In this document: one piece after another, positions 1,250 through 56,894 of the stretch | Numbering within the stretch: position 1 is the first letter of the stretch | Layout: every line of letters starts with the position of its first letter | Assembly (NCBI RefSeq): GCF_003991155.1 | Contig: NZ_CP031294.1 | Length of the DNA: 64,000 nt | From: Escherichia coli | GTDB taxonomy: Bacteria > Pseudomonadota > Gammaproteobacteria > Enterobacterales > Enterobacteriaceae | Direction: 5' to 3' (one strand) | Notes under the pieces: generated by a model | The model's input: only the letters and a program-made list of their open reading frames with translations | Database searches by the model: none | What the model was told of the DNA's origin: nothing | Program-made: the position numbers and the translations under genes

Positions 1250-1609
1250 TCAACCTTTCTTCATCAACTCTCGTTTAATTTCATCGGTACGCATCGTAAC
1301 GTCGGCAGCTGTGATCGCCTCGTTAAGCTTCACGATGTCCTCGATTTCCTGCGGTGACTTCTCTGCCAGATGGAAAATGGCTGCTCGAATCACGTCAGAA
1401 CGAGTGAACTTCTCGAAGCGAGGGATGAACTTCATCATCTCCAGCAGTTCGAAGTATTCGTCTTCCAGTGACATTGTGCGGCTTTTAATTTTCTCTTTGC
1501 CACGAGTCGGGCGTCCCTGTGGTCTGACTGGTTGGCGCAAAGGAGTTGTGTTCTTAGCCGGTGCATCAGGCTCTTTGCGCTTTGCTAGGTCACCCATTTT
1601 CATGGACAT
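1250..1609 (-). CDS. small basic protein downstream of parA; candidate centromere-binding partner (ParG/ParB-like), function not verified
   Basis: 119 aa ORF immediately after and translationally coupled to the ParA-type ATPase; basic N-terminus; position typical of type Ib partition operons. Confidence 0.4.
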   Translation of the reverse strand: MSMKMGDLAKRKEPDAPAKNTTPLRQPVRPQGRPTRGKEKIKSRTMSLEDEYFELLEMMKFIPRFEKFTRSDVIRAAIFHLAEKSPQEIEDIVKLNEAITAADVTMRTDEIKRELMKKG

Positions 1610-29928: not shown

Positions 29929-29946
29929 GATAATTACTTACCTATC
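29929..29946. promoter_or_regulatory. family-1 motif GATAATTACTTACCTATC between terminase stop and portal start
   Basis: Read directly. Confidence 0.5.
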
Positions 29947-31198
29947 GAGAACCACCAAGAATAACACGGTTTTTGACTGGATACCTACGATGTACTGGAT
30001 AGCCCAATGCGTCTGCACTATGCTCAATGCCACCTGTCTTATCCATATCTCGTGTTCCAGGCTTGTAGATGACTTTTTCCAGTGAATCAATCAAATGCTT
30101 GCACTTCGGATCGATATACAGCCGGATATCTCCAGATGCGGTCATCAGCATTCGGTTAACAGCATTAACACGATCCGCAATTGGCGGGTGCTTTTTCGAA
30201 TAATCGACACGTAAGAATCCCTTCTCTTTGAATATGTCGACGTCAGACTCCCCGCGAGCATGTTGGCGATAAGCACCTGCCGGATCTGGAAATACCGTTA
30301 TCTGTGATTTCCAGCGCCAGAAGCGTCTCTCAAGCTCATCACAAACCTCTGCCGTGTTAGAGGAAAAGAGCACCAATTCATCAATTGCCCATAGCTCACC
30401 ATTTGGCTGAGGTTGCAAAATTACTGAAGACATCGGGTCAATGTTGAAGTCCTGCCCTACCCATATAGGCAACCGAGGGTTGAACTGAAGCGGTTTTACA
30501 TGCACGTTACGATCGAACGGGTAGTAAACGCGCCCGGACATGTTCTCAAAGCTCGCCAGGTACTCCTGAGCGAACGATTTCGGGTCCATATCGTTCTTAG
30601 CAGCTTCAATTTCCGCCGTAGGTACAAACGGAGAATCGGCAGTTACAAACTGCCAGCTCTTCCACTGTCCCTTTCTTTGCAGCTCTACGTTCTGGCCTAT
30701 AGTCCACAGTTTGTGAAATTCCGAGAAGCCTTTTGGCGTACCAATGATCAGTGCACCGCCGCGTGTCGATGAAAGAGTAGGTCGTAACACCTTGTACCAG
30801 GTGTCAGCCTTCATATCCTGAAATTCATCAAGCACTACAAAATGCAACGCTACGCCGCGCAGAGTGTCAGGCTTATCAGCACCTTTGAGGGCGATCTCCG
30901 AACCGTTCTTCAACACGATTGTCATCGTGGTGTCGTTCTTTTTCCTAACCCACTTACGAGGCAGAACTTCCTGTAGATCGTCCCACAAAATCTGGCGAGC
31001 CATCTGGTAAGTAGGAGCGACATACCAGACTCTTTGCTTTTTTTCCTTTGCCGCCGCACGAATAATAGTGGAGATCGACAACCGGGATTTTCCCCAGCGT
31101 CGACCAGCACAAACAACTTTAAATCGATGCGGAGACTGGAAGACTTTCATCTGTCCAGAATGCAGTTGCACAAGACTGAGCGAGGACGGGATTGCCAT
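29942..31198 (-). CDS. terminase large subunit
   Basis: Walker A CAGRRWGKS, Walker B-like VVLDEFQ, C-terminal nuclease-like region; upstream of portal. Confidence 0.8.
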   Translation of the reverse strand: MAIPSSLSLVQLHSGQMKVFQSPHRFKVVCAGRRWGKSRLSISTIIRAAAKEKKQRVWYVAPTYQMARQILWDDLQEVLPRKWVRKKNDTTMTIVLKNGSEIALKGADKPDTLRGVALHFVVLDEFQDMKADTWYKVLRPTLSSTRGGALIIGTPKGFSEFHKLWTIGQNVELQRKGQWKSWQFVTADSPFVPTAEIEAAKNDMDPKSFAQEYLASFENMSGRVYYPFDRNVHVKPLQFNPRLPIWVGQDFNIDPMSSVILQPQPNGELWAIDELVLFSSNTAEVCDELERRFWRWKSQITVFPDPAGAYRQHARGESDVDIFKEKGFLRVDYSKKHPPIADRVNAVNRMLMTASGDIRLYIDPKCKHLIDSLEKVIYKPGTRDMDKTGGIEHSADALGYPVHRRYPVKNRVILGGSR

Positions 31199-32301: not shown

Positions 32302-33192
32302 TTATGCCGGTAAAGCAATTTCTAACGGTTTATCCAAAGGTTGTTTGTCGAATGCCAGCAGTGGCAGCGTGTCAGGCAGTCGACGGCCAAAGTCAGGGTT
32401 TCGGTACACACCATACAACGGAGACGTAAAGCTCAGGTTGTGAATGTCCTTGAGCAGCTTCACAATGCTGGCCTCGTCCACCAGACTGTCGGCAATGTCC
32501 TGAATCGTCGTGCCACGATTCCGCCCAGCTTTTGCCAGGGAACTGTTCTTATGGTAGTCCGCCACCAAATCGCGCAGCGCACGGCGACGACGAGACTCGC
32601 TCATAGCGAACAACTCTTTGACGATCGCCTCGTTATCACCCGGGTCGGAGCGGAAATGGCGCTGGAACACACGCAGTGCACTTTCATAGCTCTTCGGTCG
32701 CTCAGGGCGGATGAACTTAAACCCTGCTTTCATGGCGAAGGGATTGTATTTGCTCATCGAGGACTGGATCTCAATGATTGGCCGGTCATGCATCCTGCTA
32801 ACCAGGTTAATCATTCTATAAGAGACGCCTACGCCACGATACTGAGTATCCACAACTGAGCGACTGATCACCGCAAAGTTGTTATTCACGTACCGACCCC
32901 AGTACTGGTTAGCCACGGTGGTATTAGTGGTTGGTTTCAACTTAGGAAACATGCGGTGGCGAGGTGCCAACAGTAGTTTCGGGTAAGCCATAACCACGAC
33001 GCCCACCAGACGGTCATCAAGTTCGCAGCGATAGTAAGTTGGCGCGAAAGGTTTGCCGTCTGTTTTGTAGTGAAGCGACTTAAGAGCGTGCCAGTCCTCT
33101 ACAGTTCCCTTTGTAACAGTCATTCGCTCCAGAAAGTCCAGATGACGCGGAAACTCTTCAGGGCGGTAGCGTTTAATGATGATGTCCGTCAT
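32302..33192 (-). CDS. GNAT-like acyltransferase-domain protein (tentative)
   Basis: 296 aa; central QYRGVGVSYRMINLV resembles GNAT acetyl-CoA motif A, followed by KAGFKFI. Confidence 0.35.
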   Translation of the reverse strand: MTDIIIKRYRPEEFPRHLDFLERMTVTKGTVEDWHALKSLHYKTDGKPFAPTYYRCELDDRLVGVVVMAYPKLLLAPRHRMFPKLKPTTNTTVANQYWGRYVNNNFAVISRSVVDTQYRGVGVSYRMINLVSRMHDRPIIEIQSSMSKYNPFAMKAGFKFIRPERPKSYESALRVFQRHFRSDPGDNEAIVKELFAMSESRRRRALRDLVADYHKNSSLAKAGRNRGTTIQDIADSLVDEASIVKLLKDIHNLSFTSPLYGVYRNPDFGRRLPDTLPLLAFDKQPLDKPLEIALPA

Positions 33193-33854
33193 GAATGGAC
33201 CTCATCATGACTACCATTGTGATATTCCACCTTCACGCGTTCTTTGTAGTGCTTGGTGATCTGCATATCAGGGCGCAGCGCGTTCTTCAGGTCTTCGTGA
33301 GTCGTCGCCACCATTACCGTCGCACCAACCTTTCGAGCGGCACGCTGGAGGTTAGACGCCACAACCTGAGCGGTTACACGGTCGAGAACAGCGCCGAACT
33401 CGTCAGCAGCCCATACTTTAGCGCCTGACTCAATCAGTTTGGCAATCTTGAGACGATATTTCTGGCCGTCTGACATTTCAGAAGGCTTGCGAACAAACAG
33501 ATATGCATCGTTCAGACCAGCCATAGATAACAACCCAAGCGCATCACTGGTCGTTTTGCCCAACTGATCGATGACGTTAACCTCATTATCGAAGGTAAAA
33601 TCATCGATGGAGGCTACAGACAGCCCTTCATCCTTCATCTGTCGTTGCAACTCGCGCAGCACAACGGATTTGCCGGAACCGGATTGGCCGGTGATGTACA
33701 CCACATCGCCCTGCTTCACTTCCAGCTCCAGATTGTCGTAAAGCGTCCACTCTTTTTCGTCCAGGCCAAGCCCGAACGACTCAGCGATTTCCAACGTGCG
33801 CGTGGTTTTATTTACGCGTGTCTGAAACGATACGTTGATGATGTATTTGCTCAT
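33189..33854 (-). CDS. small ABC-type ATPase (nucleotide-binding domain only)
   Basis: Walker A GQSGSGKS, ABC signature LSDGQKYR, Walker B VWAADEFGAVLD, H-loop TTHE. Confidence 0.7.
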   Translation of the reverse strand: MSKYIINVSFQTRVNKTTRTLEIAESFGLGLDEKEWTLYDNLELEVKQGDVVYITGQSGSGKSVVLRELQRQMKDEGLSVASIDDFTFDNEVNVIDQLGKTTSDALGLLSMAGLNDAYLFVRKPSEMSDGQKYRLKIAKLIESGAKVWAADEFGAVLDRVTAQVVASNLQRAARKVGATVMVATTHEDLKNALRPDMQITKHYKERVKVEYHNGSHDEVHS

Positions 33855-34519
33855 GCAGCCATCTCCCCGGAAGAGATCTTCTCCGCATATGCCACAAATG
33901 CGTCTACCCCGCTTTCTCCCGTCATTTCTTCCATATGGGCAAGCAAATCACCAACAACAATGGCAGAGCCAGCAGGGAGCGTTTTAAAGCCCAATACGTC
34001 GACAACACGTACTTCTTCCGCTGCAACTTCACGACTGATCTCGGTGTGTTCATCCTTCTGTCGTTTAGTTTCTTCGCCAAGATCGATAACTAGCGAGTCG
34101 GTGTCCATTTCTTCTGTCATACTGCCAACGAGAACATTCAACTCACGCTCTTCAAAGCCGAAAACCTCGATATCGTCCAGAACAAGCGACTCAAGCTCTT
34201 TCTGTAGCTTAATTGCATCGTAATCAATGCTGGCAAGTCGGTTATCTTCAAGGCGCTTCGCACGAACCTCGTCATCACTGAGATCATCGCGAACAATAAC
34301 CGGTACGCGCTCAAGTCCAGCAAAAATTGCAGCCTCACGGCGGCCGTGGCCAGTAATAATTACGTCGTTCTTATCGACCGTAATTGGCTGGTCAAATCCG
34401 CGCTTTTTAATGGCTGCGGCTAGATCTCGGATCTGCTGTTCATCATGCTTTTTGGCATTCATCTCATAGGGAATAAGATCTGCCGGGTCGCGATATACGA
34501 TTTCAAACTTTTTGGTCAT
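33851..34519 (-). CDS. ParB/Srx-fold domain protein 2
   Basis: Start at ATG overlapping upstream stop (TAATG); ParB N-domain-like QPITVDKNDVIITGHGRREAAIFAGLERVPVIV. Confidence 0.65.
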   Translation of the reverse strand: MTKKFEIVYRDPADLIPYEMNAKKHDEQQIRDLAAAIKKRGFDQPITVDKNDVIITGHGRREAAIFAGLERVPVIVRDDLSDDEVRAKRLEDNRLASIDYDAIKLQKELESLVLDDIEVFGFEERELNVLVGSMTEEMDTDSLVIDLGEETKRQKDEHTEISREVAAEEVRVVDVLGFKTLPAGSAIVVGDLLAHMEEMTGESGVDAFVAYAEKISSGEMAA

Positions 34520-35217
34520 TACATACGCTCCTTGTAGTAGTCGACCAGCCACACCAGAGCCTCACCAGCGTTCTCCATTTCATTACCGGTGTTAATAGCC
34601 TGCTCTTTGATGATGTTTTTTATGGTTTCTGCAACACGATCTGACGCATCGAAAGTTACTTTGAAGCGCATGGTCTGATGTTCCGCACCCACACGTTCGG
34701 TTTTCTCTCGTTTGTCGGTATCGACAGGCTCATCACTACCACGAGACAACGCCTCCAGTGCTTCAAGGTCGATTGCCGCCTCTTTTGCTAAAACCATCGA
34801 GATTTCGTCGTCATACGGAGCGATTTCAGACAGTTGATAGTCAAGTTCTGACTGAATTTCTTCAATGAAGCGTTGCAATGCGATTTGGTCGTCTTCACCG
34901 TATCGCTCGTTGTCCACCAGTGACATCTGTTTAGCTACGACATCGCTAATTTTGCCCACAGAAAGCACCGGAACCGTTGAAATTCCTTGCTCAATAGCAG
35001 CACGCCAGCGATGTTCGCCGCCGAGGATTTCAAAAAATCCATCTTCAAGTTCACGAGCCAAAATTGGCTTAAAAAAGCCCAATTTTTCGATAGAACCTTT
35101 CAGTTTTTCAAAATTCTGCGCACCAACCGAATTGGTGTTCCAGGTATTCGGGCGAAGGTTGGCAACATCAACCTGCAAAATCGTGATTTTTACATCCATT
35201 TTATTGCTACAATCCAC
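34519..35217 (-). CDS. ParB/Srx-fold domain protein 1
   Basis: ParB N-domain-like segment FEILGGEHRWRAAIEQGISTVPV. Confidence 0.65.
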   Translation of the reverse strand: MDCSNKMDVKITILQVDVANLRPNTWNTNSVGAQNFEKLKGSIEKLGFFKPILARELEDGFFEILGGEHRWRAAIEQGISTVPVLSVGKISDVVAKQMSLVDNERYGEDDQIALQRFIEEIQSELDYQLSEIAPYDDEISMVLAKEAAIDLEALEALSRGSDEPVDTDKREKTERVGAEHQTMRFKVTFDASDRVAETIKNIIKEQAINTGNEMENAGEALVWLVDYYKERM

Positions 35218-37148: not shown

Positions 37149-37613
37149 ATGAAGTCTCCCATACTGTTCACTTTCTGTTCTAAAACTATCATGAAATACT
37201 CGCTTCTCCCTCTACTAACGTTACCAGTGTTGATGCTTGCCGCGTGCCAATCACACCCAATATCAATCCATGACGCCAAACCAGCACCGCAGGCCAAAGT
37301 GTTCAAGTATCAAAGCGCAGCGCCAGCTACGTTGGTGGTAATGAGAGACACAGGTTTTGTAGGAGCTGGATGTGATGCTTCCATTTTCATCAACGGCGAA
37401 ACTGTCGCAAAACTGGCTACAGGCGAAAAAGCGACTTTCCATTTAAATGCCGGAGAATTAATTGTGGGTGCATCTCTTGAAGGTGCAGGTTTATGTGCTC
37501 TAAACCCCGCTCGTCAAGAGCGAGAAACGACTCTGAAGAATGGAGACACAAAAGCGTTCAGGGTGTTTACCAGCAATTCTGGTGACATCGACATTCTGCC
37601 AACAACTCTGTGA
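37149..37613 (+). CDS. putative lipoprotein
   Basis: Signal peptide with lipobox-like LAAC (MKYSLLPLLTLPVLMLAAC). Confidence 0.55.
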   Translation: MKSPILFTFCSKTIMKYSLLPLLTLPVLMLAACQSHPISIHDAKPAPQAKVFKYQSAAPATLVVMRDTGFVGAGCDASIFINGETVAKLATGEKATFHLNAGELIVGASLEGAGLCALNPARQERETTLKNGDTKAFRVFTSNSGDIDILPTTL

Positions 37614-37617
37614 TGAC

Positions 37618-38142
37618 ATGACAACCAAAGATATTACCTACGGTATCCAAGCTGAACTCTGGCCGCGAGATTACACTAACGTTGAAAAACTACTGATGTT
37701 CTGGCGCAGAGAACAAATTCCTGTAAGGGTCACTCTCGAAGATGGCCAGGCGTTTTGCATGTACGTTTATGGCCTCATGCCATCTCGTAACAAAGTTGAC
37801 CTTTGCCCAGCCCCTTTTGACAAAGAAAATCGTATAAGGCTCCCACTTGAACGCATTAGTACAATTGAATCAGGTGTGGTTGACAGTATCGCTCACGATT
37901 TCAAAGGTCGACTAACAGTTCACCCTGATTATGTCGATAATCGGCCATCACGCCGCGATTTTTTTGCAATTTGCAACCAAGCCTACAAAGCAAACAAATC
38001 TATAAGGGTGTACATGGCGGATGGCCGTGAAATTGAGGGGGTGTCAGCAGGCGCAGATGCTTGTCAGGTTACACTACGTGTCGAGAACGGTAGAAAAATA
38101 GTTGTTTTGTTCGATTGGGTTGAACGAATTTTGCCTTTTTGA
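37618..38142 (+). CDS. hypothetical protein
   Basis: Start set at in-frame ATG just after upstream stop; ORF track 37540..38142. Confidence 0.4.
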   Translation: MTTKDITYGIQAELWPRDYTNVEKLLMFWRREQIPVRVTLEDGQAFCMYVYGLMPSRNKVDLCPAPFDKENRIRLPLERISTIESGVVDSIAHDFKGRLTVHPDYVDNRPSRRDFFAICNQAYKANKSIRVYMADGREIEGVSAGADACQVTLRVENGRKIVVLFDWVERILPF

Positions 38143-39389: not shown

Positions 39390-39437
39390 TTAATGGAATC
39401 AAGCGCCCACTATGGGCGCTTTAAAGGAGCTTTGAAA

Positions 39438-39641
39438 ATGGTCAGCTATGACAAGATCCGCGCGGAATATCGCGCAAAGTATCGCGCTTATAAACTAGAA
39501 TTAATCGATGATTTAATCGCGCAACGCGACCAATTAAATTTTACGTTTTCTGATTTGCTTAACAGCAAGCGAGATTGCAAGCGCAAACGTGAATACTTAC
39601 GTTTAAGCGCATTAATCGGAAAACTTCAAAATTCTATTTAA
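39438..39641 (+). CDS. small hypothetical protein
   Basis: Start at ATG preceded by AAAGGAG; ORF track version starts inside the upstream hairpin. Confidence 0.35.
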   Translation: MVSYDKIRAEYRAKYRAYKLELIDDLIAQRDQLNFTFSDLLNSKRDCKRKREYLRLSALIGKLQNSI

Positions 39642-39661
39642 TTTTTTTAAGGAGCTTAATC

Positions 39662-39892
39662 ATGTTTGTTCTTATCGCTGGCGTTAACGTCCATAACGAA
39701 TATTATGTTAATCGCATCGCTGGGATCGCTGGTTACGCTGGGCGCGCAGTCGAGTTTATCGATGAAACAACGCGTAAAATTGATTTATTGAGCGACCAGG
39801 AGCGAAAAAAAGCAGACGTGAACGACGCTGATATATTTTTAATGTTAAAAGCGTTTGTAGAAATGGGATTTAAAATCAGTTTACACAAATAA
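39662..39892 (+). CDS. small hypothetical protein
   Basis: 76 aa, SD AAGGAG upstream; followed by two tandem terminators. Confidence 0.4.
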   Translation: MFVLIAGVNVHNEYYVNRIAGIAGYAGRAVEFIDETTRKIDLLSDQERKKADVNDADIFLMLKAFVEMGFKISLHK

Positions 39893-39897
39893 AATCG

Positions 39898-39925
39898 AGC
39901 GCCCACTATGGGCGCTTTTTTCGTT
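39898..39925 (+). terminator. intrinsic terminator (gagcgcccac-tat-gggcgct + T-run); same hairpin also at 39401-39422
   Basis: Stem-loop and T6 run read directly. Confidence 0.7.
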
Positions 39926-39942
39926 TCCAATACTTCCACAAT

Positions 39943-39970
39943 AACGCGCCATTGATGGCGCGTTTTTTAT
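39943..39970 (+). terminator. second tandem intrinsic terminator (aacgcgccat-tga-tggcgcgtt + T-run)
   Basis: Stem-loop and T6 run read directly. Confidence 0.65.
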
Positions 39971-40383
39971 TGTCTTTAACTCACTCCAACAACATAAAAA
40001 TAAGCGCCAAAATAACGCCATAAACGCGCTTTTATATCCTTACCAGTACATACCCATTACTTAACACATTAACGCGCTTAAAACGCGTTATATTGCGCTA
40101 TAGCGTATGGTTAATCATTGGCTTTTAGTCTTGCTATGTGATCCGCGTTTATTTGTCGGCGCGGATCGGCATTTTGTTTTGTTCCGTATCCGCTCGCGTA
40201 TTATGTGCGCGTGATTTTTCACATAATCACACCACTTAATCACGTATGTGATTATGCTACGAAAGAAATCTGGATGTCTCAGGCGACGAAAGTCATCATA
40301 ATTTTCCCCGCTCGCCTGTCCGACAACCGCTGGTTGGATTCCACCAGCTTCCCGATGTTTTTTTCTACATAAAGGCGAATGCA

Positions 40384-40460
40384 GCCGTTTCCCGAAAAAA
40401 TCCTGGCCGTTTCCCGTCGGCTCATGAATACGTTCCTCGCCGTTTCTGAAAATTTCCCTG
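40384..40460. repeat. three iteron-like repeats GCCGTTTC(C/T)(C/G)
   Basis: gccgtttcccgaaaaaa / gccgtttcccgtcgg / gccgtttctgaaaatttccctg read directly. Confidence 0.5.
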
Positions 40461-40509
40461 CGGCAGCTGGTGGCTATAGAGAAAGGGCCGTTTCTGGCCC
40501 TCTTCTCAG

Positions 40510-40992
40510 TTACACGCCATCAAGGATGTGGATGCGGTTGCTTGCGTATACATTCAGCATAAAGTTAGCGCAAAACAGTTTCCATGTATCAACGCCAGCG
40601 GTATACGTAATGTTTTTGCATTTAATCGCATTGTTGGCGATCCGCATCCCCTGCGATACTGCTTCATCGTCGGAAAATTTGAACGACGATTGAGTTTTAA
40701 TCCAGACAGAAATCTGCGTAGCGAACTCAATCAGCTTGGACTGGCAGAATCGCCCGGAGCGCACCGGAAAGACGAACGTTCCGAATCCAGAATTTACCAC
40801 ATATGCTTTCTCAAATACCCGCGAGTAACGACGATTGCCAATGATGTCGCGTGCAATAATGCATTTTTCTTGTGCTGACAGTTCTACCGTCTCATTGTCG
40901 CGCCATGCACCAAGTACTCGTTTTTCAATGTCAGAGAACGTTACAGCGATATTGCCATGTGCGGGTGCGTTTACAGTAGCGATAAAATTCAT
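40510..40992 (-). CDS. hypothetical protein
   Basis: 160 aa; conserved family-2 box immediately upstream of start. Confidence 0.55.
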   Translation of the reverse strand: MNFIATVNAPAHGNIAVTFSDIEKRVLGAWRDNETVELSAQEKCIIARDIIGNRRYSRVFEKAYVVNSGFGTFVFPVRSGRFCQSKLIEFATQISVWIKTQSSFKFSDDEAVSQGMRIANNAIKCKNITYTAGVDTWKLFCANFMLNVYASNRIHILDGV

Positions 40993-43792: not shown

Positions 43793-44125
43793 CAGAATAA
43801 TCCTCTCCCCGAAAACCTACTGAAATCGATTGTGACCCGTTGGCTGTCTGGCACAATTACGCTGTAACTGGGCATTCAGAGGGAATCCAGCGGTAAGTAA
43901 GTTCGCCTGCACGTGAGCGCCTCTCTTCTTCCCGCACATTACAGGTGGGTAGCCGCAACTCTCCCTCTCGCTATACCGGTACGCCGCCGTTCCTGAACCG
44001 GCATCGAGCCTTCTCCCGAAATCCACACAGGCAACTCGACCGTTTCCCTGAAAACCTCCAGCCGTTCCCCGAAGGCAACCCAGCCGTTTCTGTAGCGGGA
44101 TGCAACCTTTTCCCTGTATGGACCG
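43793..44125. repeat. array of about 7 iteron-like repeats (C(C/T)GTTTCCC(T)GAA-type)
   Basis: ctccccgaaaacc, cttctcccgaaatcc, ccgtttccctgaaaacc, gccgttccccgaagg, gccgtttctgtagc, ccttttccctgtatgg, gccgttcctgaacc read directly. Confidence 0.5.
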
Positions 44126-44229
44126 AAGGCTGACCGTAGGGGTGTTACGGGGGATAAAATCAGGAGTTGAATAAATACGAAAAAGGAGGCGACACCCCTC
44201 CTTCTCTCCCCACTTATACATACCTGGCT

Positions 44230-44830
44230 TCTTCGCTATACATGTTGTGTTTTATTCGTGTTTTATCTGTCTCAACCTCTCTATGGACGTTAATACTCAC
44301 TCCTTCCAGAACGTTCTATACGGCGACTAATTCTGTTGGTGAATTGGGTGTGTTGTTCTCTCTGTCGGTGTATGTGGTTTCGTTCGTTTTGCGGTGGTTC
44401 TTCTATGGGGTGTTCTCGTCGTTTTGGTGATTGTTCTTCTCCGTGTATGGAGTAATGGCAGGTGGGCGATTCCTTTCGTTATTGTGTTTGAGTTGTTTGT
44501 CTGGAGTGCGTGAAGGGCTTTTGTAGTTATTCGTGTGTTGGGTAATGGCGTTTCCCGTGATTGTTCTGTTTCGTGTCTTTTGGGATTGAGAGAAACCTTG
44601 CGGTTACAGGCTTCGTTGGGGTTTCAGTGATTCTGGTGTTTCTTCGCTGTTTGGGTAATGGCGTGTCGTGGGTATCGCGCGTATGGAAGTTTCGAATTGC
44701 CTGTGAAAGTTAGGTTGGTTGTCCGGTAGCCTGAGAAGAAGAGGTGGGTCTTTTCGGTAGCCTGCCATAAAGAGGTTGGTTGTTTTTGGTAATGGCATAT
44801 GTGTTATTTAGTTGTTTTGTTATGCCTGAA
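44230..44830. repeat. strongly strand-skewed (G+T-rich on plus strand) non-coding tract with degenerate ~60-bp repeats (ggtaatggc..., cggtagcctg...)
   Basis: Base composition and repeated words read directly; ORFs in the tract are low-complexity and rejected. Confidence 0.5.
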
Positions 44831-45176: not shown

Positions 45177-45911
45177 TTACTTAGTTTTGTTTAGCAGAGA
45201 GAGAATTTCATCACTAATTTCACTCGCCTGTTTGATAGCCAATGCAGTTACCTCTTCTATGGTTGGTGACTGTTGATGCTCATATTTGGTTTCGGTTATG
45301 ACAATGTGTTCTTCACCAGAATTTGCGCATAGTGCCGCATTGACGATAAGGTTTGAGTAAGAATTTAGCAGAGCACTGTTGATGAACGCTTTCACGGTAT
45401 TACTGTCTGCACCAAATACATCTTTTCTGACCGCTTCAGCCTCACAGCGAACCCCTGCAGCAACATCGTGAAGAACATGTATGGCCTTGGAGCTTGTTTG
45501 TTCACAGTACTCAATCATTATTGTCGAATTGTTCTGTTCAACAAACGATCTGATGCCTGACGATTTACCCATAGCATCGAAGGCAGCGTGACCCGCACTA
45601 GTAGAGATATCTTCATAGAGTTCTTCATCGCTATCTTTTTCTTCAGGTGTCGAGGTGTCTTCATCGTCGTAATAGATATTGCCTTTAATCAGTGTCTTGG
45701 ACACTTGATATAAACAATAAGAAACGAGATTTAAGCATTGGATTTTAGCTGTATTGTCCTTTGTCGCCTCGCTATTCAGTTCTTTCGCTTCTTCAGTAAG
45801 GCTGTTGATAAGACTTTGTATTTTTTCCAACGCGTTAGGTGCACACTCCGCGTTGTCCATAAAGAATTTATAACCAGTCCCAGGGATTTCTAAACTTTTC
45901 AACTTTTTCAT
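45177..45911 (-). CDS. hypothetical protein
   Basis: 244 aa ORF. Confidence 0.5.
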   Translation of the reverse strand: MKKLKSLEIPGTGYKFFMDNAECAPNALEKIQSLINSLTEEAKELNSEATKDNTAKIQCLNLVSYCLYQVSKTLIKGNIYYDDEDTSTPEEKDSDEELYEDISTSAGHAAFDAMGKSSGIRSFVEQNNSTIMIEYCEQTSSKAIHVLHDVAAGVRCEAEAVRKDVFGADSNTVKAFINSALLNSYSNLIVNAALCANSGEEHIVITETKYEHQQSPTIEEVTALAIKQASEISDEILSLLNKTK

Positions 45912-46417: not shown

Positions 46418-48451
46418 TTACTTAACCTGGTGGCCTGGTTTAGCACCAGCATCCGGGCTTAACAGGAAGATATCTTTCCCGCCGGGGCCAGCAGCCATCA
46501 CCATGCCTTCGGAGATACCGAAGCGCATTTTACGCGGAGCCAGGTTAGCCACCATAATGGTGTGACGACCAATCAGTGCCTGTGGGTCTGGATAAGCAGA
46601 ACGGATGCCTGAGAAGACATTACGCTTTTCACCACCGAGATCCAGTGTCAGACGCAGCAGTTTGTCAGAACCTTCGACAAACTCCGCGTTTTCAATCAGC
46701 GCCACACGCAGGTCAACTTTGGCGAAGTCGTCAAAGGTGATGGTTTCCTGAATCGGGTCGTCAGCCAGTGGGCCAGTTACCGGTGCAGCTGTGGCTTTCA
46801 CTTCTTCTTTGGATGCTTCCACCAGTGCTTCCACCTGTTTCATATCGATACGGTTATACAATGCCTTGAACGGATTCACTTTATGGCCCAGCAGCGGTTG
46901 CTGGATACCATCCCAGGTCAGTTCTGTATTCAGGAATGCTTCTGCACGTTCAGTCAGTTTCGGCAGTACCGGTTTCAAGTACGTCATCAGCACGCGGAAC
47001 AGGTTAATGCCCATAGAGCAAATCGCCTGCAGATCGGCATCGCGTCCTTCCTGCTTCGCCACCACCCACGGAGCCTGTTCATCGACATATCGGTTAGCCA
47101 GGTCAGCCAATGCCATGATTTCACGGATAGCTTTACCAAATTCGCGGCTTTCCCATGCTTCGCCAATCACTTCAGCGGCATCAGTAAAGGTTTTGTACAG
47201 TTGCGGGTCAGCCAGTTCGCTTGCCAGCACGCCGTCAAAACGCTTGTTGATAAAGCCTGCATTACGGGAGGCCAGGTTAACCACTTTGTTCACGATATCG
47301 GCATTCACGCGCTGAACGAAATCCTCCAGGTTGAGATCGATATCATCAATGCGCGAAGAGAGTTTCGCAGTGTAGTAGTAACGCAGGCTGTCGGCGTCAA
47401 AATGATTCAGCCAGGTGCTGGCTTTAATAAAGGTGCCGCGAGACTTGGACATCTTCGCGCCGTTCACCGTCACATAGCCGTGAACAAACAGGTTGGTCGG
47501 CTTGCGGAAGTTGCTGCCTTCCAGCATGGCAGGCCAGAACAGGCTGTGGAAGTAAACAATATCTTTACCGATGAAGTGGTACAGCTCGGCTGTGGAGTCT
47601 TTCTTCCAGTATTCATCGAAGCTGGTGGTATCGCCGCGCTTGTCGCACAGATTCTTGAAGGAACCCATGTAGCCAATCGGCGCGTCCAGCCAGACGTAGA
47701 AATATTTGCCCGGCGCGTTCGGAATTTCAAAACCGAAGTAAGGCGCATCGCGGGAGATATCCCACTGTTGCAGGCCGGATTCAAACCACTCCTGCATTTT
47801 GTTCGCCACCTGCTCCTGCAACGCACCGCTGCGGGTCCATGCCTGCAACATTTCGCTGAAAGAGGGCAGATCAAAGAAGAAGTGTTCGGAATCACGCATT
47901 ACCGGGGTAGCGCCAGAAACCACCGATTTCGGCTCGATCAATTCAGTCGGGCTATATGTTGCGCCGCAGACTTCACAGTTATCGCCGTATTGATCTGGCG
48001 CTTTACATTTCGGGCAGGTGCCTTTCACAAAACGATCCGGCAGGAACATGCCTTTTTCCGGGTCGTACAACTGAGAGATAGTGCGGTTTTTAATAAAACC
48101 GTTCTCTTTCAGGCGAGTATAGATAAGCTCAGACAGCTGGCGGTTCTCTTCGCTGTGCGTCGAGTGATAGTTGTCATAGCTGATGTTAAAGCCTGCGAAA
48201 TCAGTCTGGTGTTCCTGACTCATTTCGCCAATCATCTGCTCCGGTGTGATACCAAGCTGCTGTGCTTTCAGCATGATCGGCGTACCGTGGGCATCGTCGG
48301 CACAGATGAAATTAACCTCGTGGCCGCGCATTCGCTGGTAACGAACCCAGACATCAGCCTGGATGTGCTCCAGCATATGGCCGAGGTGGATTGAGCCGTT
48401 AGCGTACGGCAGCGCGCACGTCACCAGAATTTTCTTCGCGACTTGGGTCAT
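46418..48451 (-). CDS. metG: methionine--tRNA ligase
   Basis: Near-full-length match by recall to enterobacterial MetG: HIGH-type motif [16 protein letters not shown], zinc knuckle CPKC...C..C, C-terminal tRNA-binding domain; start set at MTQVAKK (ATG 48451), the ORF-track start is an upstream artefact. Confidence 0.95.
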
Positions 48452-48608
48452 AGTAGGCATTACTTCTTTGTAGTGAAAAGGGGCTTGATAGTAACAAAAT
48501 GGCCTTATGTCTGCCATGTGATAACAGCATTTCTCATAAATGATTAAATGTCGTAGCTGGAGTACACTACAAGGCGACAATTGCGCAAATTAAAATAAAG
48601 GAGACGGG

Positions 48609-49709
48609 ATGAGCGAGTCCAAATCGCCGGATGCCCTGAGAGCAATGGTAGCCGGTACGCTGGCTAATTTTCAGCACCCAACCCTGAAACACAACCTGAC
48701 TACGCTTAAAGCGTTACACCATGTTGCGTTGATGGATGACACACTGCATGTCGAACTAATCATGCCTTTCGTGTGGAATAAGCCTTTTGAAGACCTGAAA
48801 GAGCAATGTAGTGGTGATCTGCTCCGTATCACTGGCGCAAAGGCTATTGACTGGAAGCTGTCGTACAACATTGCCACGCTTAAGCGCGTCAAAAACCAAC
48901 CAGGCATTAATGGCGTTAAGAACATTATCGCCGTCAGCTCAGGCAAGGGCGGCGTGGGTAAATCCTCCACGGCGGTAAACCTGGCACTGGCGTTGGCTGC
49001 TGAAGGTGCGAAAGTTGGTATTTTGGATGCCGATATCTATGGTCCATCAATTCCAACCATGCTGGGCGCGGAAAACCAACGTCCAACCTCACCTGACGGT
49101 ACTCACATGGCACCTATCATGTCTCATGGCCTGGCAACCAACTCTATTGGTTATCTGGTCACCGACGACAATGCAATGGTGTGGCGTGGACCGATGGCCA
49201 GCAAGGCGCTGATGCAGATGTTGCAGGAAACTCTATGGCCTGATCTGGACTATCTCGTTCTCGATATGCCGCCGGGCACTGGTGATATTCAGTTGACGCT
49301 GGCGCAGAACATTCCTGTAACTGGTGCGGTTGTGGTAACTACGCCGCAAGACATCGCGCTGATCGATGCGAAGAAAGGCATTGTGATGTTCGAAAAAGTC
49401 GAAGTGCCGGTACTGGGTATCGTCGAAAACATGAGTGTGCATATTTGCAGTAACTGCGGTCATCACGAGCCAATTTTTGGCACCGGTGGCGCACAGAAAC
49501 TGGCCGAGAAATACAACACGCAGTTGTTAGGCCAAATGCCACTTCATATCTCTCTTCGTGAAGATCTGGATAACGGAACACCAACCGTTATTAGTCGTCC
49601 AGATAGCGAATTTACGGCTATTTATCGTGACCTCGCAGATCGCGTTGCCGCCCAAATGTATTGGCAAGGTGAAGTAATACCTGGCGAAATCGCATTCCGC
49701 GCAGTGTGA
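48609..49709 (+). CDS. mrp: Fe-S cluster carrier ATPase Mrp/ApbC
   Basis: Walker A SGKGGVGKS, CxxC motif (CSNCGHH), conserved divergent arrangement with metG as in enterobacterial chromosomes. Confidence 0.93.
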   Translation: MSESKSPDALRAMVAGTLANFQHPTLKHNLTTLKALHHVALMDDTLHVELIMPFVWNKPFEDLKEQCSGDLLRITGAKAIDWKLSYNIATLKRVKNQPGINGVKNIIAVSSGKGGVGKSSTAVNLALALAAEGAKVGILDADIYGPSIPTMLGAENQRPTSPDGTHMAPIMSHGLATNSIGYLVTDDNAMVWRGPMASKALMQMLQETLWPDLDYLVLDMPPGTGDIQLTLAQNIPVTGAVVVTTPQDIALIDAKKGIVMFEKVEVPVLGIVENMSVHICSNCGHHEPIFGTGGAQKLAEKYNTQLLGQMPLHISLREDLDNGTPTVISRPDSEFTAIYRDLADRVAAQMYWQGEVIPGEIAFRAV

Positions 49710-50837: not shown

Positions 50838-52396
50838 ATGAAAATGACAAGTATTCAACAACGTGCAGAGCTTCATCGCCAGATCTGGCAAATTGCTAAC
50901 GATGTCAGGGGTTCAGTCGATGGATGGGATTTTAAGCAGTACGTTTTGGGCGCGCTTTTTTACCGTTTTATCAGCGAAAATTTTTCCAGTTATATTGAAG
51001 CCGGTGATGACAGTATCTGTTATGCGAAACTGGATGACAGCGTAATTACTGATGACATTAAAGACGATGCCATCAAAACTAAAGGCTACTTCATCTACCC
51101 CAGTCAGCTTTTCTGCAACGTAGCTGCGAAAGCAAATACTAATGACAGACTGAATGCAGATTTAAACAGCATCTTCGTTGCTATCGAAAGTTCTGCTTAC
51201 GGTTATCCTTCAGAAGCTGACATCAAAGGTTTGTTTGCTGATTTCGATACCACCAGTAACCGCCTGGGTAACACCGTTAAAGATAAAAATGCCCGCTTGG
51301 CTGCGGTTCTGAAAGGGGTTGAAGGGCTAAAACTTGGTGACTTCCATGAACATCAGATTGACCTGTTCGGTGACGCCTATGAGTTCCTGATTTCTAACTA
51401 TGCGGCGAATGCCGGTAAGTCCGGCGGCGAGTTCTTTACACCGCAGCACGTCTCTAAGCTGATTGCACAACTGGCTATGCACGGGCAGACCCACGTTAAC
51501 AAAATCTACGACCCGGCAGCAGGCTCCGGTTCGCTGTTGTTGCAGGCGAAAAAACAGTTTGATGACCATATCATCGAAGAAGGTTTTTTTGGTCAGGAAA
51601 TCAACCATACGACCTATAACCTGGCGCGTATGAACATGTTTTTGCACAACATCAACTACGACAAGTTTGATATCAAGCTGGGTAATACACTGACTGAGCC
51701 GCACTTCAGAGATGAAAAACCGTTTGATGCCATCGTTTCTAACCCGCCGTATTCGGTGAAATGGATTGGCAGCGATGACCCGACGCTGATTAACGATGAA
51801 CGTTTTGCCCCGGCTGGCGTTCTGGCCCCCAAATCCAAAGCTGACTTTGCGTTTGTATTACATGCGCTGAACTATCTTTCGGCCAAAGGTCGCGCTGCGA
51901 TTGTCTGCTTCCCAGGCATTTTTTACCGTGGCGGCGCGGAGCAGAAAATCCGTCAGTATCTGGTCGACAATAACTATGTCGAAACCGTGATTTCACTGGC
52001 ACCGAATCTGTTCTTTGGCACCACTATTGCCGTCAATATTCTGGTGCTGTCTAAACATAAAACGGATACCAAAGTTCAGTTTATTGATGCCAGCGAACTG
52101 TTCAAAAAAGAGACTAACAACAACATTCTGACCGATGCTCATATCGAACAGATTATGCAGGTATTTGCCAGCAAGGAAGATGTTGCTCATCTGGCGAAAT
52201 CTGTTGCGTTTGAGACTGTTGTCGCGAATGACTATAACCTGTCGGTGAGCAGCTATGTGGAAGCGAAAGATACTCGCGAAATTATCGATATCGCTGAGCT
52301 GAATGCTGAGCTGAAAACCACGGTCAGCAAAATCGACCAGTTGCGTAAAGATATTGATGCGATTGTTGCTGAGATTGAAGGTAGCGAGGTACAGGC

Positions 52397-52400
<4 letters not shown>
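50838..52400 (+). CDS. hsdM: Type I restriction-modification N6-adenine DNA methyltransferase subunit
   Basis: NPPY motif ([10 protein letters not shown]), AdoMet-binding motif, 520 aa; operon with hsdS and hsdR. Confidence 0.93.
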
Positions 52401-53656
<1,256 letters not shown>

Positions 53657-53777
53657 TTGACCATTGCTACCGACCGGATCACCTTAACATCCGGTCTATA
53701 TAGAGACTATTTTTTACACGCCGGAAGTCGCCCTTAAAGCCCTTCCGGCCCTTGCCAGACGGCACAAAGGATGCGCT

Positions 53778-56700: not shown

Positions 56701-56894
56701 ATGAAGAGGCGGCGAAACGCTATATTCGCACGTCTTTAAAACGCGAATACGCCACCGAAAATGGCACAGAATTAAACGAGACATTACCAAAACTTAGTCC
56801 GTTAAACCCGCAATATAAAACGAAAAAACAGACCGTTTTCCAGAAAATCGTCACGTTTATTGAAAAGTTCAAAGGAGTAGGTGGGCAGATATAG
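53778..56894 (+). CDS. hsdR: Type I restriction enzyme endonuclease/translocase subunit (EcoR124I HsdR-like)
   Basis: 1038 aa; SF2 helicase motifs (TGSGKT, DECHR), N-terminal nuclease domain; sequence recalled as very close to EcoR124I HsdR. Confidence 0.93.

What the first reader, a model, noticed from the sequence alone, without database searches (positions are those of the whole stretch)
39930..40330. Palindrome-dense non-coding region after the tandem terminators
The region is rich in short GCGC-centred inverted repeats (aacgcgcttaaaacgcgtt, gatccgcg...gcgcggatc) and repeated taatcac / tgtgattatg words, with no ORF. It looks like a protein-binding cis region (origin, partition or packaging site).
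Basis: seen in the sequence. Interest (0 to 1): 0.35.

Follow-up and report, generated by a model that had tools for sequence, protein, structure and literature searches.

The report
Conserved terminator-and-repeat spacer in phage-plasmid
The palindrome-rich stretch is real, but most of it is transcription terminators plus palindromes found only in this lineage; what related phage-plasmids actually conserve is a short repeat family and two Chi sites just to its right, whose function is still unknown.

Summary
The window is an SSU5-family phage-plasmid of E. coli. The finding lies inside a 617-bp ORF-free gap (39893-40509) between convergent operons. About 780 plasmids or phages from eight or more genera, including Y. 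pestis pMT1, have a homologous gap.

Inverted repeats are about 10 times denser than in shuffles, and this is the densest 401-nt stretch of the 64 kb.

Palindrome density is not conserved. Homologous gaps in other clades sit at chance level, and the flagged palindromes survive only in the window's own E. coli lineage.

The conserved parts are:
- tandem + strand terminators;
- at least one - strand terminator;
- a few short blocks;
- two inverted Chi sites (40341, 40466);
- direct GCCGTTTCC repeats (40384-40496) that recur as a 22-bp-periodic array 3.6 kb away (43986-44126). The two clusters bracket a six-gene cassette.

The plasmid origin is elsewhere, at IncFIB repA with unrelated iterons. 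The terminase gene is 8.7 kb away.

Best reading: a terminator-insulated convergence zone carrying protein-binding repeats and Chi. The main rival is a small non-coding RNA locus, because three hairpins show + strand-specific G.U substitutions. Function is unproven. Interest is modest.

The parts
39897..39923 (+). Terminator T1 of the + strand operon: hairpin GAGCGCCCA-CUA-UGGGCGCUU followed by a U6 run. The same 19-nt hairpin also occurs at 39402-39420.
   Evidence: Terminator scan. Fold energy -15.5 kcal/mol, z -4.0. Nearly invariant in all relatives. Exact duplicate found.
39938..39973 (+). Terminator T2: core hairpin 39943-39964 AACGCGCCAU-UG-AUGGCGCGUU plus a U6 run, extended by A/U arms ACAAUAA/UUAUUGU. 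This is the first 'palindrome' of the finding.
   Evidence: Fold energy -16.8 kcal/mol, z -4.6. The stem arms are invariant while the loop varies among relatives.
39994..40019 (-). Terminator-like hairpin on the - strand (GGCGUUA-UUU-UGGCGCU) followed by UAUUUUUAUG. It pairs fully only on the - strand, because its G.U pairs become A.C on the + strand.
   Evidence: A homologous hairpin plus U-run is found in Enterobacter, Klebsiella and Salmonella relatives. The block AAAAATAAGCGCCA is highly conserved. The hairpin is weak in the window itself: -6.0 kcal/mol, z -2.0.
40043..40058 (.). Conserved block AGTACATACCCATTAC, function unknown.
   Evidence: Conservation profile across 9 clades and alignment.
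40070..40090 (.). In other clades the homologous position is a - strand terminator-like hairpin with a U-run (AAAACGCGCUAUAACGUGUUUU UUUG).
   Evidence: Fold energy -16.8 kcal/mol on the - strand. Relatives. The perfect palindrome is kept only in window-type sequences.
40138..40181 (+). GATC-containing hairpin GAUCCGCG-N12-CGCGGAUC followed by GCAUUUUGUUUUG, which is terminator-like on the + strand. Only the 5' word GTGATC(CGCG) is conserved family-wide.
   Evidence: Fold energy -18.6 kcal/mol, z -3.3. The hairpin is kept in 10 of 23 representatives. GTGATC is invariant even in the most divergent relative.
40200..40256 (.). Nest of AATCAC/GTGATT half-sites: GTGATT at 40211, AATCAC at 40225 and 40238, GTGATT at 40248. 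It includes CATAATCACA (40222) and its inverted copy TGTGATTATG (40247). CATAAT reads as a -10-like hexamer on both strands. The module looks like an operator/promoter and is an amplification specific to this lineage.
   Evidence: A - strand promoter-like match uses CATAAT at 40256-40251. Most relatives have a single CATAATCACA on the + strand. This version of the segment is found only in E. coli SSU5-like phages.
40280..40318 (+). Hairpin CAGGCGA...UCGCCUG enclosing a GAC-GAAA-GUC mini-hairpin. Relatives have GGGG-CUGAAA-CCCC at the homologous place.
   Evidence: Fold energy -15.5 kcal/mol, z -3.1. The relatives' hairpin shows a GGAG/CUCC compensatory variant and G.U intermediates.
40341..40348 (-). 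Chi site (CCACCAGC on the + strand, which is GCTGGTGG on the - strand).
   Evidence: Present in nearly all of the 60 unique homologues, including all three versions of the middle segment.
40384..40460 (+). Direct repeats R1 (40384), R2 (40406) and R3 (40439). The unit is GCCGTTTCY-N5-7-TYCCCYG, and R1-R2 are spaced exactly 22 bp. The core GCCGTTTCCC of R1 and R2 is the most conserved sequence of the gap.
   Evidence: Four of the five GCCGTTTCY words in the 64 kb fall in 40384-40496: R1-R3 here plus R4 at 40487. Invariant in all relatives, including the 51%-identity one. R1-R2 is a paralogue of the second array (blastn E 6e-4). R2's stem shows G-C / G.U / A-U variation.
40466..40473 (+). Chi site (GCTGGTGG), inverted relative to the one at 40341.
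   Evidence: Present in roughly 50 of the 60 homologues.
40479..40507 (-). Terminator of the - strand operon, which ends with the 160-aa gene at 40510-40992. Its loop carries the fourth repeat core R4 (40487-40496).
   Evidence: Fold energy -18.2 kcal/mol, z -3.3. In relatives it reads GGGGC-UGGAAAC-GCCCC followed by UUUCUUUU. The R4 core is not kept in the most divergent relative.
43986..44126 (+). Second array of the same repeat family. Cores are at 43986, 44008, 44039, 44061, 44083 and 44105, with spacings of 22, 31, 22, 22 and 22 bp. It lies in a second unannotated non-coding region upstream of the six-gene cassette 43643-40510.
   Evidence: Conserved 3-4 kb from the gap in nearly all relatives with enough flank. 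No gene is annotated there in about 700 plasmids. The overlapping ORF has no Pfam or PHROG hit.
44180..44206 (-). A - strand terminator immediately upstream (in the - sense) of the second array. The order terminator then array is the same as at 40479-40507.
   Evidence: Terminator scan. Fold energy -16.7 kcal/mol.

Best explanation
The interval is not one element. It is the left and middle part of a conserved 617-bp convergence zone (39893-40509) of SSU5-family phage-plasmids.

Shown:
- Two tandem intrinsic terminators stop the rightward operon.
- One terminator stops the long leftward operon.
- At least one further leftward terminator-like hairpin sits inside the gap. The central ~500 bp are therefore shielded from incoming transcription on both sides.
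- The part under family-wide constraint is on the right: direct GCCGTTTCC repeats flanked by two inverted Chi sites.
- The same repeat family forms a strictly 22-bp-periodic array 3.6 kb away, so the two clusters bracket a six-gene cassette of unknown function.

Inferred:
- The repeats are binding sites for a phage-encoded sequence-specific protein. The two clusters would act together, by looping or handcuffing, either to control the cassette or as a phase-specific replication-control element.
- The Chi sites limit RecBCD degradation and promote recombination. This fits the mosaic exchange of segments seen exactly here.

Excluded: this is not the plasmid origin, not a P1-type pac site and not a par centromere.
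For: Family and context.

Conservation: the gap keeps its length, its blocks exceed synonymous-site conservation, and it has no conserved ORF.

Terminators on both strands, in the window and in relatives.

Palindromes are lineage-specific: kept only in window-type sequences; density is at chance (0-3) in the other clades tested; the middle segment exists in three versions.

Repeats: 4 of the 5 GCCGTTTCY words in 64 kb lie in 112 bp. R1-R2 are spaced 22 bp in all relatives. The core is invariant down to a relative whose neighbouring protein is 51% identical. The second array has 22-bp periodicity. The two clusters are paralogous.

Unit-specific hairpin pairing is only marginal: mean stem 3.9 against 3.6 in permutations. 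That favours a direct-repeat reading over a hairpin reading for most units.

Chi: 15 in the window against 1.4 expected. It is the joint most frequent 8-mer of a complete 108.6-kb relative. Homologues carry 2-4 copies in the gap.

Mosaic breakpoints inside the gap.

Plasmid origin elsewhere, with unrelated iterons.
Against: - No binding protein is identified. The cassette proteins and both flanking proteins have no Pfam function. The 160-aa neighbour gives a confident model with no known fold.
- No Rep-type initiator was found in the genes searched around the two clusters, and no convincing DnaA box or AT-rich unwinding element was seen next to the repeats.
- R3 and R4 are irregularly spaced, and R4 is lost in the most divergent relative.
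- R2, one of the repeats, shows G-C / G.U / A-U variation. In three hairpins every non-Watson-Crick cell is G.U on the + strand: 74 G.U against 0 A.C, about 8 events. This points to a folded single strand (RNA or ssDNA) rather than duplex recognition.
- Nothing here shows binding or function.
Confidence: 0.42

Rival explanations
1. Small non-coding RNA locus. The terminator-insulated centre carries its own promoter or promoters at the conserved CATAATCACA motif. CATAAT would be the -10 element on the + strand; TGTGATTAT would be an extended -10 on the - strand.

A + strand RNA would start with the GAAA-capped hairpin and run through the second hairpin and R2. A - strand RNA of about 230-300 nt would end at the conserved leftward terminators. 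The repeats would then be RNA hairpins displaying UUUCCC loops, possibly for an RNA-binding protein such as the FljA-like regulator encoded 2 kb upstream.
For: - GNRA (GAAA) and UUCG-type loops read on the + strand.
- Every departure from Watson-Crick pairing in HP-A, HP-B and R2 is G.U on the + strand: 74 cells against 0 A.C. There is a GGAG/CUCC double change and a G-C/G.U/A-U series.
- Terminator-like hairpins on the - strand inside the gap, conserved in several genera, have no upstream gene to serve.
- The left terminator pairs fully only on the - strand.
- CATAATCAC is invariant in the majority clade.
- A PF03614 (FljA) protein is syntenic in all relatives, including the most divergent.
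Against: - No Rfam family matches in the window or in six relatives.
- No good sigma-70 promoter is conserved.
- The + strand RNA has no canonical terminator: the U-run at 40356-40365 lies 9-14 nt after the nearest hairpin.
- Folding energies of the middle and right parts are close to shuffles, z -0.9 to -1.7, with no consistent strand preference. Consensus folding finds little beyond the terminators.
- The middle segment is replaced in three versions and deleted in Klebsiella.
- The strand-specific evidence rests on about 8 events.
- Y. pestis sRNA-seq lists two pMT1 sRNAs, neither in this gap.
- Strict 22-bp phasing of the second array is not expected for RNA hairpins.
Confidence: 0.28
2. 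Lytic-phase or secondary replication origin. The GCCGTTTCC units are iterons for an unrecognised initiator encoded in or next to the six-gene cassette. The arrangement would resemble P1 or F, with an origin array at 43986-44126 and a control array at 40384-40460. Chi sites in minus-then-plus order flank it as they flank a chromosomal origin.
For: - 22-bp direct repeats lie in two clusters bracketing an operon.
- The order of the Chi sites (- at 40341, + at 40466) matches what is expected around an origin (orientation rule as stated in PMC12315714).
- GATC words cluster in the gap of many relatives, and the element encodes its own adenine methylase.
- The region is insulated from transcription.
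- pMT1, which is maintained as a plasmid, lacks the second array. That array is therefore not needed for plasmid maintenance.
Against: - No Rep-like gene was found: all cassette proteins are 160 aa or shorter and have no Pfam hit.
- No AT-rich unwinding element or DnaA boxes were recognised.
- GC skew gives no origin signal here; the cumulative curve follows gene orientation.
- Chi has no global orientation switch at this site: 13 on each strand, interleaved.
- GATC clustering is not conserved: 2 in the window, 1 in one clade.
Confidence: 0.15
3. Largely passive spacer and recombination junction. Only the terminators, and perhaps Chi, are functional. The rest is kept by short divergence times, by hitch-hiking, and by repeated homologous exchange between relatives at the conserved blocks.
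For: - Clear mosaicism. S56-type sequences are 95-100% identical to the window on both sides but 23-60% in the middle. The 160-aa gene of one relative is 99% identical while the 216-aa gene is 83%.
- There are three versions of the middle segment, one of them a deletion.
- Chi sites promote such exchange.
- Palindromes are lineage-specific.
Against: - Blocks such as GCCGTTTCCC (twice), TTCTACATAAAGGC and AGTACATACCCATTAC are invariant or nearly so in lineages whose four-fold sites are 29-64% identical.
- The gap keeps its length in about 780 records.
- The repeat family is maintained at a second locus.
Confidence: 0.1
4. Packaging (pac/cos) site or partition centromere.
For: - GTGATC words resemble the TGATCA/G hexamers of P1 pac, and relatives have 2-4 of them.
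- Two ParB-N-domain proteins are encoded 5 kb to the left.
- One clade has Chi sites in plus-then-minus order around the middle of the gap, the order that would protect ends made by a cut there.
Against: - The window has only one TGATCC and one GGATCG.
- The terminase large subunit gene is 8.7 kb away (29942-31198). There is a separate 470-bp gap next to the putative small-subunit gene.
- In no phage record does the gap lie at a genome end.
- No parA/parB pair adjoins the gap. A small ATPase gene pair that I read as the likely partition locus lies at the far left of the window (1250-2277).
- In the window, the Chi order around the repeats is the opposite of what would protect a cut made between them.
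Confidence: 0.05

Closest known systems
Bidirectional / tandem intrinsic terminator zones between convergent operons
   Same: GC-rich hairpins followed by U-runs sit directly after the stop codons of both converging operons. They are duplicated in tandem, have A/U-extended stems, and are conserved across genera.
   Different: About 500 bp of additional conserved non-coding sequence lies between the outer terminators. It includes inward terminators with no gene to serve, and a repeat family shared with a second locus.
Iteron arrays bracketing a rep gene in P1 (incC-repA-incA) and F (ori2/incB-repE-incC)
   Same: Direct repeats of about two helical turns (22 bp) occur in two clusters, in the same orientation, flanking a transcription unit. 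One cluster is larger and more regular than the other.
   Different: - No Rep-family initiator lies between the clusters.
- No DnaA box or AT-rich element was recognised.
- The element already has a classical P1-like IncFIB replicon elsewhere, with unrelated iterons and GATC repeats.
- One unit shows base-pair covariation.
- Autonomous replication is untested.
[quoted passage not shown]
   Same: Exact GCTGGTGG is strongly over-represented. It is the joint top 8-mer of a complete relative, at one per 4.2 kb.
   Different: In the lambdoid class, Chi is almost all in one orientation and piles up near one genome end. Here the counts are 13 and 13 with no global polarity, but there is a local hot spot of 2-4 alternating sites in this gap.
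Phage/plasmid regulatory small RNAs encoded in intergenic regions (for example P1 c4, lambda oop, P4 CI; named from my own knowledge)
   Same: It is a conserved ORF-free region with hairpins capped by GNRA-type loops, strand-specific G.U substitutions and internal terminators.
   Different: There is no Rfam match and no conserved promoter/terminator pair defining a transcript. The segment is replaceable and deletable in some clades. No target complementarity was identified.

Membership tests
Intrinsic (Rho-independent) terminator | Stable GC-rich hairpin immediately followed by a U-run, placed downstream of a stop codon. | tested here: met
   T1 is -15.5 kcal/mol and T2 is -16.8 kcal/mol, each followed by U6, within 5-50 nt of the stop at 39892. 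The - strand terminator 40479-40507 is -18.2 kcal/mol and lies after the stop at 40510.
Intrinsic (Rho-independent) terminator | Stem conserved while the loop varies among homologues. | tested here: met
   T2 arms are invariant, while the loop reads TTGA, TTGT, CATT, ACAA or CAAT in different relatives. T1 is nearly invariant.
Iteron-type replication origin | Three or more direct repeats of 17-22 bp, phased at about two helical turns. | tested here: inconclusive
   In the gap only R1-R2 are 22 bp apart; R3 and R4 follow at 33 and 48 bp. The second array has four consecutive units at exactly 22 bp.
Iteron-type replication origin | An initiator (Rep) gene adjacent to the repeats. | tested here: not met
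   The genes searched around and between the two clusters have no Rep-family Pfam hit, and their PHROG families are of unknown function. The 160-aa neighbour has no known fold. The 244-aa ORF at 45177-45911 has no Pfam hit.
Iteron-type replication origin | An AT-rich unwinding element and DnaA boxes beside the iterons. | tested here: inconclusive
   By inspection there are only 7-8 of 9 matches to TTATNCACA and short AT-rich runs. No formal scan was run.
Iteron-type replication origin | Supports autonomous replication. | not testable with these tools
   This needs cloning into a conditional vector, or marker-frequency analysis.
IncFIB (P1-like) plasmid oriV of this element | RepA iterons next to repA. 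| tested here: not met
   In the complete relative pAVS0223-B, repA lies about 40 kb from the gap. Its iterons (ATCCACTATAGAGAG, 21-bp spacing) are unrelated to GCCGTTTCC.
P1-type pac site | Clusters of TGATCA/G hexamers (4 + 3) within or beside the small terminase gene. | tested here: not met
   The window has one TGATCC and one GGATCG. TerL is at 29942-31198, 8.7 kb away.
ParABS partition centromere | Centromere repeats adjacent to a parA-parB operon. | tested here: not met
   No ParA or ParB gene adjoins the gap. The ParB-N-domain genes are at 33851-35217, upstream of the terminase gene on the same strand.
Chi (RecBCD hot spot) | Exact 5'-GCTGGTGG-3'. | tested here: met
   40341-40348 on the - strand and 40466-40473 on the + strand. 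Conserved in most homologues.
Chi (RecBCD hot spot) | Alters RecBCD activity in vivo. | not testable with these tools
   This needs recombination or degradation assays in recBCD+ and recD hosts.
Structured non-coding RNA | Match to a described RNA family. | tested here: not met
   There is no Rfam hit at the gathering threshold. The best sub-threshold hits are terminator look-alikes.
Structured non-coding RNA | Base-pair covariation and strand-specific G.U pairs. | tested here: inconclusive
   Three hairpins show 74 G.U and 0 A.C cells, one double compensatory change and one G-C/G.U/A-U series. This rests on about 8 events only. Other proposed helices fail, and folding z-scores are weak.
Structured non-coding RNA | A defined transcript (promoter, 5' end, 3' end). 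| not testable with these tools
   The consensus scans are ambiguous. The only transcript list I could check (Y. pestis, PMC3770706 Table S1) has no sRNA here.

The most novel reading that the evidence does not exclude
The GCCGTTTCC units would define a previously unrecognised two-site cis system of the whole SSU5 / pHCM2 / pMT1 phage-plasmid family. It would be either the long-sought lytic-phase replicon, with iterons and an unknown small initiator from the bracketed six-gene cassette, or a looped control domain that switches that cassette between plasmid and phage life. The gap under study would be its second, controlling array.
Probability: 0.2. Interest if true: 0.6.

Novelty: new member of a known kind. 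Interest (0 to 1): 0.33.

Why it matters
SSU5-type phage-plasmids are very common in clinical Enterobacteriaceae. They include Y. pestis pMT1 and S. Typhi pHCM2 relatives and carriers of resistance genes. How they switch from plasmid maintenance to lytic growth, and where lytic replication starts, is not described in the papers I could search.

A non-coding zone kept in about 780 records, plus a repeat family shared with a second non-coding locus, gives concrete sites to delete or to use as bait. If the repeats turn out to be a control or origin element, they would explain part of that switch.

If they do nothing, the region is an ordinary terminator spacer and recombination junction.

Tried and rejected
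- Rfam on the window and six relatives: nothing.
- Small conserved protein: rejected. Frames break among near-identical copies.
- A single long structured RNA: consensus folding finds only the terminators, and per-sequence z-scores are weak.
- Chi/anti-Chi as a long-range helix: rejected. Mismatches show no strand bias, and several lineages break it.
- Helices CCCAG/CTGGG and CGCC/GGCG: rejected, with many non-pairs.
- Repeat units as hairpins in general: only a marginal excess of own-arm pairing.
- Known Y. pestis sRNAs: sR082 and sR083 map elsewhere on pMT1.
- GC skew as an origin or terminus marker: uninformative, because almost all genes are on one strand.
- Same repeat in other phage families: a three-core pattern scan of IMG/VR returned unrelated tandem repeats plus two SSU5 relatives.
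- Annotation of the second array in phage records: only 'hypothetical protein' or nothing.
- By eye only: XerCD dif/cer core, Tus Ter, CRP, Fur, sigma-54 and DnaA-box matches were partial and not conserved.
- Literature on SSU5 origin, pac or iterons: nothing relevant found.
Full report
**What the window is.** A 1.2-kb query around the finding matches E. coli SSU5-like phage-plasmids at 97-98% (phage CMS-2020a, PhiR41_1, and Cyrano of strain LF82) and matches Klebsiella and Salmonella SSU5 relatives more distantly. In the plasmid collection, the 621-bp gap alone finds 779 records. These come from Klebsiella, Escherichia, Enterobacter, Yersinia (pMT1/pFra), Salmonella, Citrobacter, Cronobacter and others. 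Most of those listed are typed IncFIB and non-mobilizable, and 432 cover at least 80% of the query at 66-100% identity. Annotated relatives show no feature in the gap.

**Where the finding sits.** The rightward genes are a UvsW-type helicase, a PF03614 FljA-like regulator, a 216-aa protein and one or two very small proteins. They end at 39892. The leftward genes end at 40510 with a 160-aa protein. In a complete relative, that leftward strand carries a run of replication and nucleotide-metabolism genes (nrdAB, thyA, folA, dam-like methylase, rnhA and others), so the gap is where nearly all leftward transcription meets the only rightward cluster. The gap 39893-40509 keeps its length, about 590-665 bp, in every relative examined, including two whose 160-aa protein is only 51-57% identical.

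**Checking the observation.** The quoted words are at the stated coordinates. Perfect inverted repeats (stem >=7, loop <=30) number 19 nested hits in 39930-40330. This compares with 1.2 +/- 1.4 in dinucleotide shuffles (0 of 300 reach it) and 1.7 +/- 2.2 in all 401-nt windows of the 64 kb (none reaches it). CGCG and GCGC are 5-7-fold enriched, and AACGCG about 37-fold. Mechanical ORFs exist, but none survives comparison: single-base indels and stops break every frame even among 97%-identical copies.

**What the palindromes are.**
- *Terminators.* The first is terminator T2 itself (39943-39964, -16.8 kcal/mol, U6), preceded by T1 (39897-39917, -15.5 kcal/mol, U6). Next comes a leftward terminator-like hairpin at 40019-40003 with a U-run. 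Its G.U pairs make it a 7-bp stem only on the - strand, and Enterobacter, Klebsiella and Salmonella relatives have a homologous hairpin and U-run.
- *The 'aacgcgcttaaaacgcgtt' palindrome.* In those relatives, the position homologous to 40070-40090 is a second leftward terminator-like hairpin with a U-run.
- *The GATC hairpin.* 40140-40167 is followed by a U-rich run on the + strand.
- *The AATCAC nest.* 40200-40256 holds four AATCAC/GTGATT half-sites around CATAAT hexamers that read as -10 elements on both strands.
- *The last hairpin.* 40280-40318 encloses a GAC-GAAA-GUC mini-hairpin.

**Are the palindromes the conserved thing? No.** I collected 60 unique homologues of the gap from plasmid, genome and IMG/VR records. 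At aligned columns, the flagged palindromes keep their pairing only in window-type sequences. The GATC hairpin survives in 10 of 23 representatives; the AATCAC pairs and the 40280 hairpin in 6-7 of 23. Counting inverted repeats between T2 and the first repeat unit in each lineage gives 8 in the window (0.8 expected). Eleven representatives of other lineages have 0-3, mostly within the shuffle range. The middle of the gap exists in three versions: window-type in 15 sequences, majority-type in 31, and a Klebsiella type with a deletion in 14. The window version is found only in E. coli SSU5-like phages. Palindrome richness is therefore a property of this lineage, not of the element.

**What is conserved.** Four-fold degenerate sites of the two flanking genes are 29-64% identical between the window and the more distant relatives compared. 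The gap nonetheless contains invariant or nearly invariant blocks:
- T1 and the T2 arms;
- AAAAATAAGCGCCA, the leftward terminator;
- AGTACATACCCATTAC;
- GTGATC;
- GCTCGCGTAT;
- TTCTACATAAAGGC;
- above all, GCCGTTTCCC twice, exactly 22 bp apart (40384 and 40406).

Two looser copies follow at 40439 and 40487. The last sits in the loop of the leftward terminator. Four of the five GCCGTTTCY words in the 64 kb lie in these 112 bp.

**A second array.** Searching the window and a complete relative for the core found a second cluster at 43986-44126. It has six units, four of them at exactly 22-bp intervals, all on the + strand. Nearly every relative with enough flank has it, 3-4 kb from the gap. It lies in a second non-coding region of about 900 bp that PGAP leaves unannotated in about 700 plasmids. 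The overlapping ORF has no Pfam or PHROG hit.

R1-R2 aligns to two adjacent units of this array at 73-78% identity (E 6e-4 and 0.002 in that small search). In some relatives the units share 15-17 identical bases, for example GCCGTTTCCCTTCGG. Each array lies just downstream, in the leftward sense, of a leftward terminator. Together they bracket six small genes of unknown function (43643-40510). Yersinia records are absent from the matches to this second region, and in pFra an IS1541 transposase gene lies about 1.2 kb to that side of the gap.

**Chi.** CCACCAGC at 40341 and GCTGGTGG at 40466 are Chi sites in opposite orientation. Chi occurs 15 times in the window against 1.4 expected. In the complete 108.6-kb relative it is the joint most frequent 8-mer, with 26 copies, 13 on each strand and no global polarity. 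Nearly all 60 homologues keep the left site and roughly 50 keep the right one. One clade has four sites in the gap, alternating - + - +, and Klebsiella types have a further left site. I first read the two sites as a long-range helix. The variants do not support that: 3 G.U, 4 A.C and 6 other mismatches, and several lineages lose one partner.

**DNA site or folded strand?**
- *For duplex recognition.* The core is invariant, the units are in direct orientation, the second array is strictly 22-bp phased, and there are two clusters. A permutation test also finds only a marginal excess of each unit's own 5' arm pairing with its own downstream sequence: mean stem 3.9 against 3.6 (7 of 2000 permutations with G.U allowed; 88 of 2000 with Watson-Crick pairs only).
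- *For a folded + strand.* In the 31 majority-type sequences, three hairpins were scored: AUAGC-GAAA-GCUAU, GGGG-CUGAAA-CCCC, and R2's GRYCG...CGGYU. In these, every cell that departs from Watson-Crick pairing is G.U on the + strand: 74 cells, no A.C. There is a GGAG/CUCC double change and a G-C / G.U / A-U series in R2. I estimate about eight independent events, so the support is suggestive only. Single-stranded DNA would give the same pattern.
- *Against a defined RNA.* There is no Rfam hit and no conserved sigma-70 promoter. The rightward strand has no canonical terminator. Folding z-scores are weak and inconsistent between strands. The middle segment is replaceable. The Y. pestis sRNA catalogue has nothing in this gap.

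**What it is not.**
- *The plasmid origin.* It is a classical P1-like IncFIB unit at repA. ATCCACTATAGAGAG iterons spaced 21 bp lie upstream, more iterons lie downstream, and there are GATC-containing repeats. No GCCGTTTCC word occurs there.
- *A pac site.* The terminase large-subunit gene is 8.7 kb to the left, and the gap is not at the end of any phage record.
- *A par centromere.* No parAB pair adjoins it. The two ParB-N-domain genes lie upstream of the terminase gene on the same strand.

**Mosaicism.** E. coli S56-type sequences are 95-100% identical to the window at 39872-40160 and again from about 40400 onward, but only 23-60% identical in between. Another lineage is majority-like on the left and identical on the right. 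One relative has a 99%-identical 160-aa gene but an 83%-identical 216-aa gene. Breakpoints fall at T2, at the GTGATC block, near 40190 and at R1-R2. The gap is thus a recurrent recombination junction, which fits a local Chi hot spot.

**Verdict.** The palindromes are largely terminators and lineage-specific sequence. The candidate functional core is the repeat-plus-Chi block at the right edge, together with its partner array.

My best account, at 0.42, is a terminator-insulated convergence zone carrying protein-binding direct repeats that work with the second array, plus Chi sites that shape recombination. The rivals are a small-RNA locus (0.28), a lytic origin (0.15), a mostly passive spacer (0.10) and pac or par (0.05). 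None can be settled without transcript mapping, binding assays and deletions.

Noticed in passing
window 43800-44710: This is a second conserved non-coding region of about 900 bp, unannotated in about 700 plasmids. It holds the 22-bp-periodic repeat array (43986-44126), a - strand terminator (44180-44206), and then about 450 bp of strongly G+T-rich sequence on the + strand (AT skew -0.32, GC skew +0.22). That last part has three copies of a ~29-nt repeat ending GTAATGGC. No Yersinia record matched this region.
   Followed up: partly
whole window; complete relative NZ_CP124417.1 (L081-L083): Chi (GCTGGTGG) is about 10-fold over-represented: 15 in the window against 1.4 expected. In the 108.6-kb relative it is the joint most frequent 8-mer, with 13 copies on each strand. 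There is no global orientation bias, unlike the Chi-rich lambdoid phages described in PMC12315714.
   Followed up: partly
window 39402-39420 and 39898-39916: The 19-nt terminator hairpin AGCGCCCACTATGGGCGCT occurs twice, identically, bracketing the two small genes at 39439-39892. Relatives carry one or the other of these genes, and the most divergent relative has two hairpin copies in tandem. The hairpin behaves like a reusable module boundary.
   Followed up: partly
window 37540-38142 (+): This gene encodes a protein of the PF03614 family (FljA, repressor of phase-1 flagellin; E 2.5e-84), with a weak Hfq-like match at its C-terminal end. It is syntenic with the gap in all relatives, including the most divergent ones. 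It could be an RNA-binding regulator, or a factor that changes host flagellin expression.
   Followed up: no
window 46418-48580 (-), 48609-49709 (+), 50838-56894 (+): The element carries a full-length methionyl-tRNA synthetase (catalytic, anticodon-binding and tRNA-binding domains), an ApbC/Mrp-type Fe-S carrier ATPase, and a complete type I restriction-modification system (hsdM, hsdS, hsdR).
   Followed up: no
window 33189-35217 (-): Two adjacent ParB-N-domain proteins and an ABC-type ATPase are encoded upstream of the terminase and portal genes, on the same strand. I suspect a role in packaging or DNA handling rather than plasmid partition.
   Followed up: no
L084 3732-3801 (- strand of the locus = + strand of the gap); L013: In the most divergent relative, the left-middle of the gap is an array of about nine 8-nt units (AGCNNTTT). 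A Buttiauxella relative has four 10-nt units (GCGTTTTAGC) at the same place. The window has only scattered AACGCG/CGCGTT words there. This short-period repeat expands and contracts between lineages.
   Followed up: partly
window 40510-40992 (-): The 160-aa protein (phrog_1641) is restricted to this phage-plasmid family. It gives a confident AlphaFold model (pLDDT 88, pTM 0.77) with no significant match to any solved structure.
   Followed up: partly
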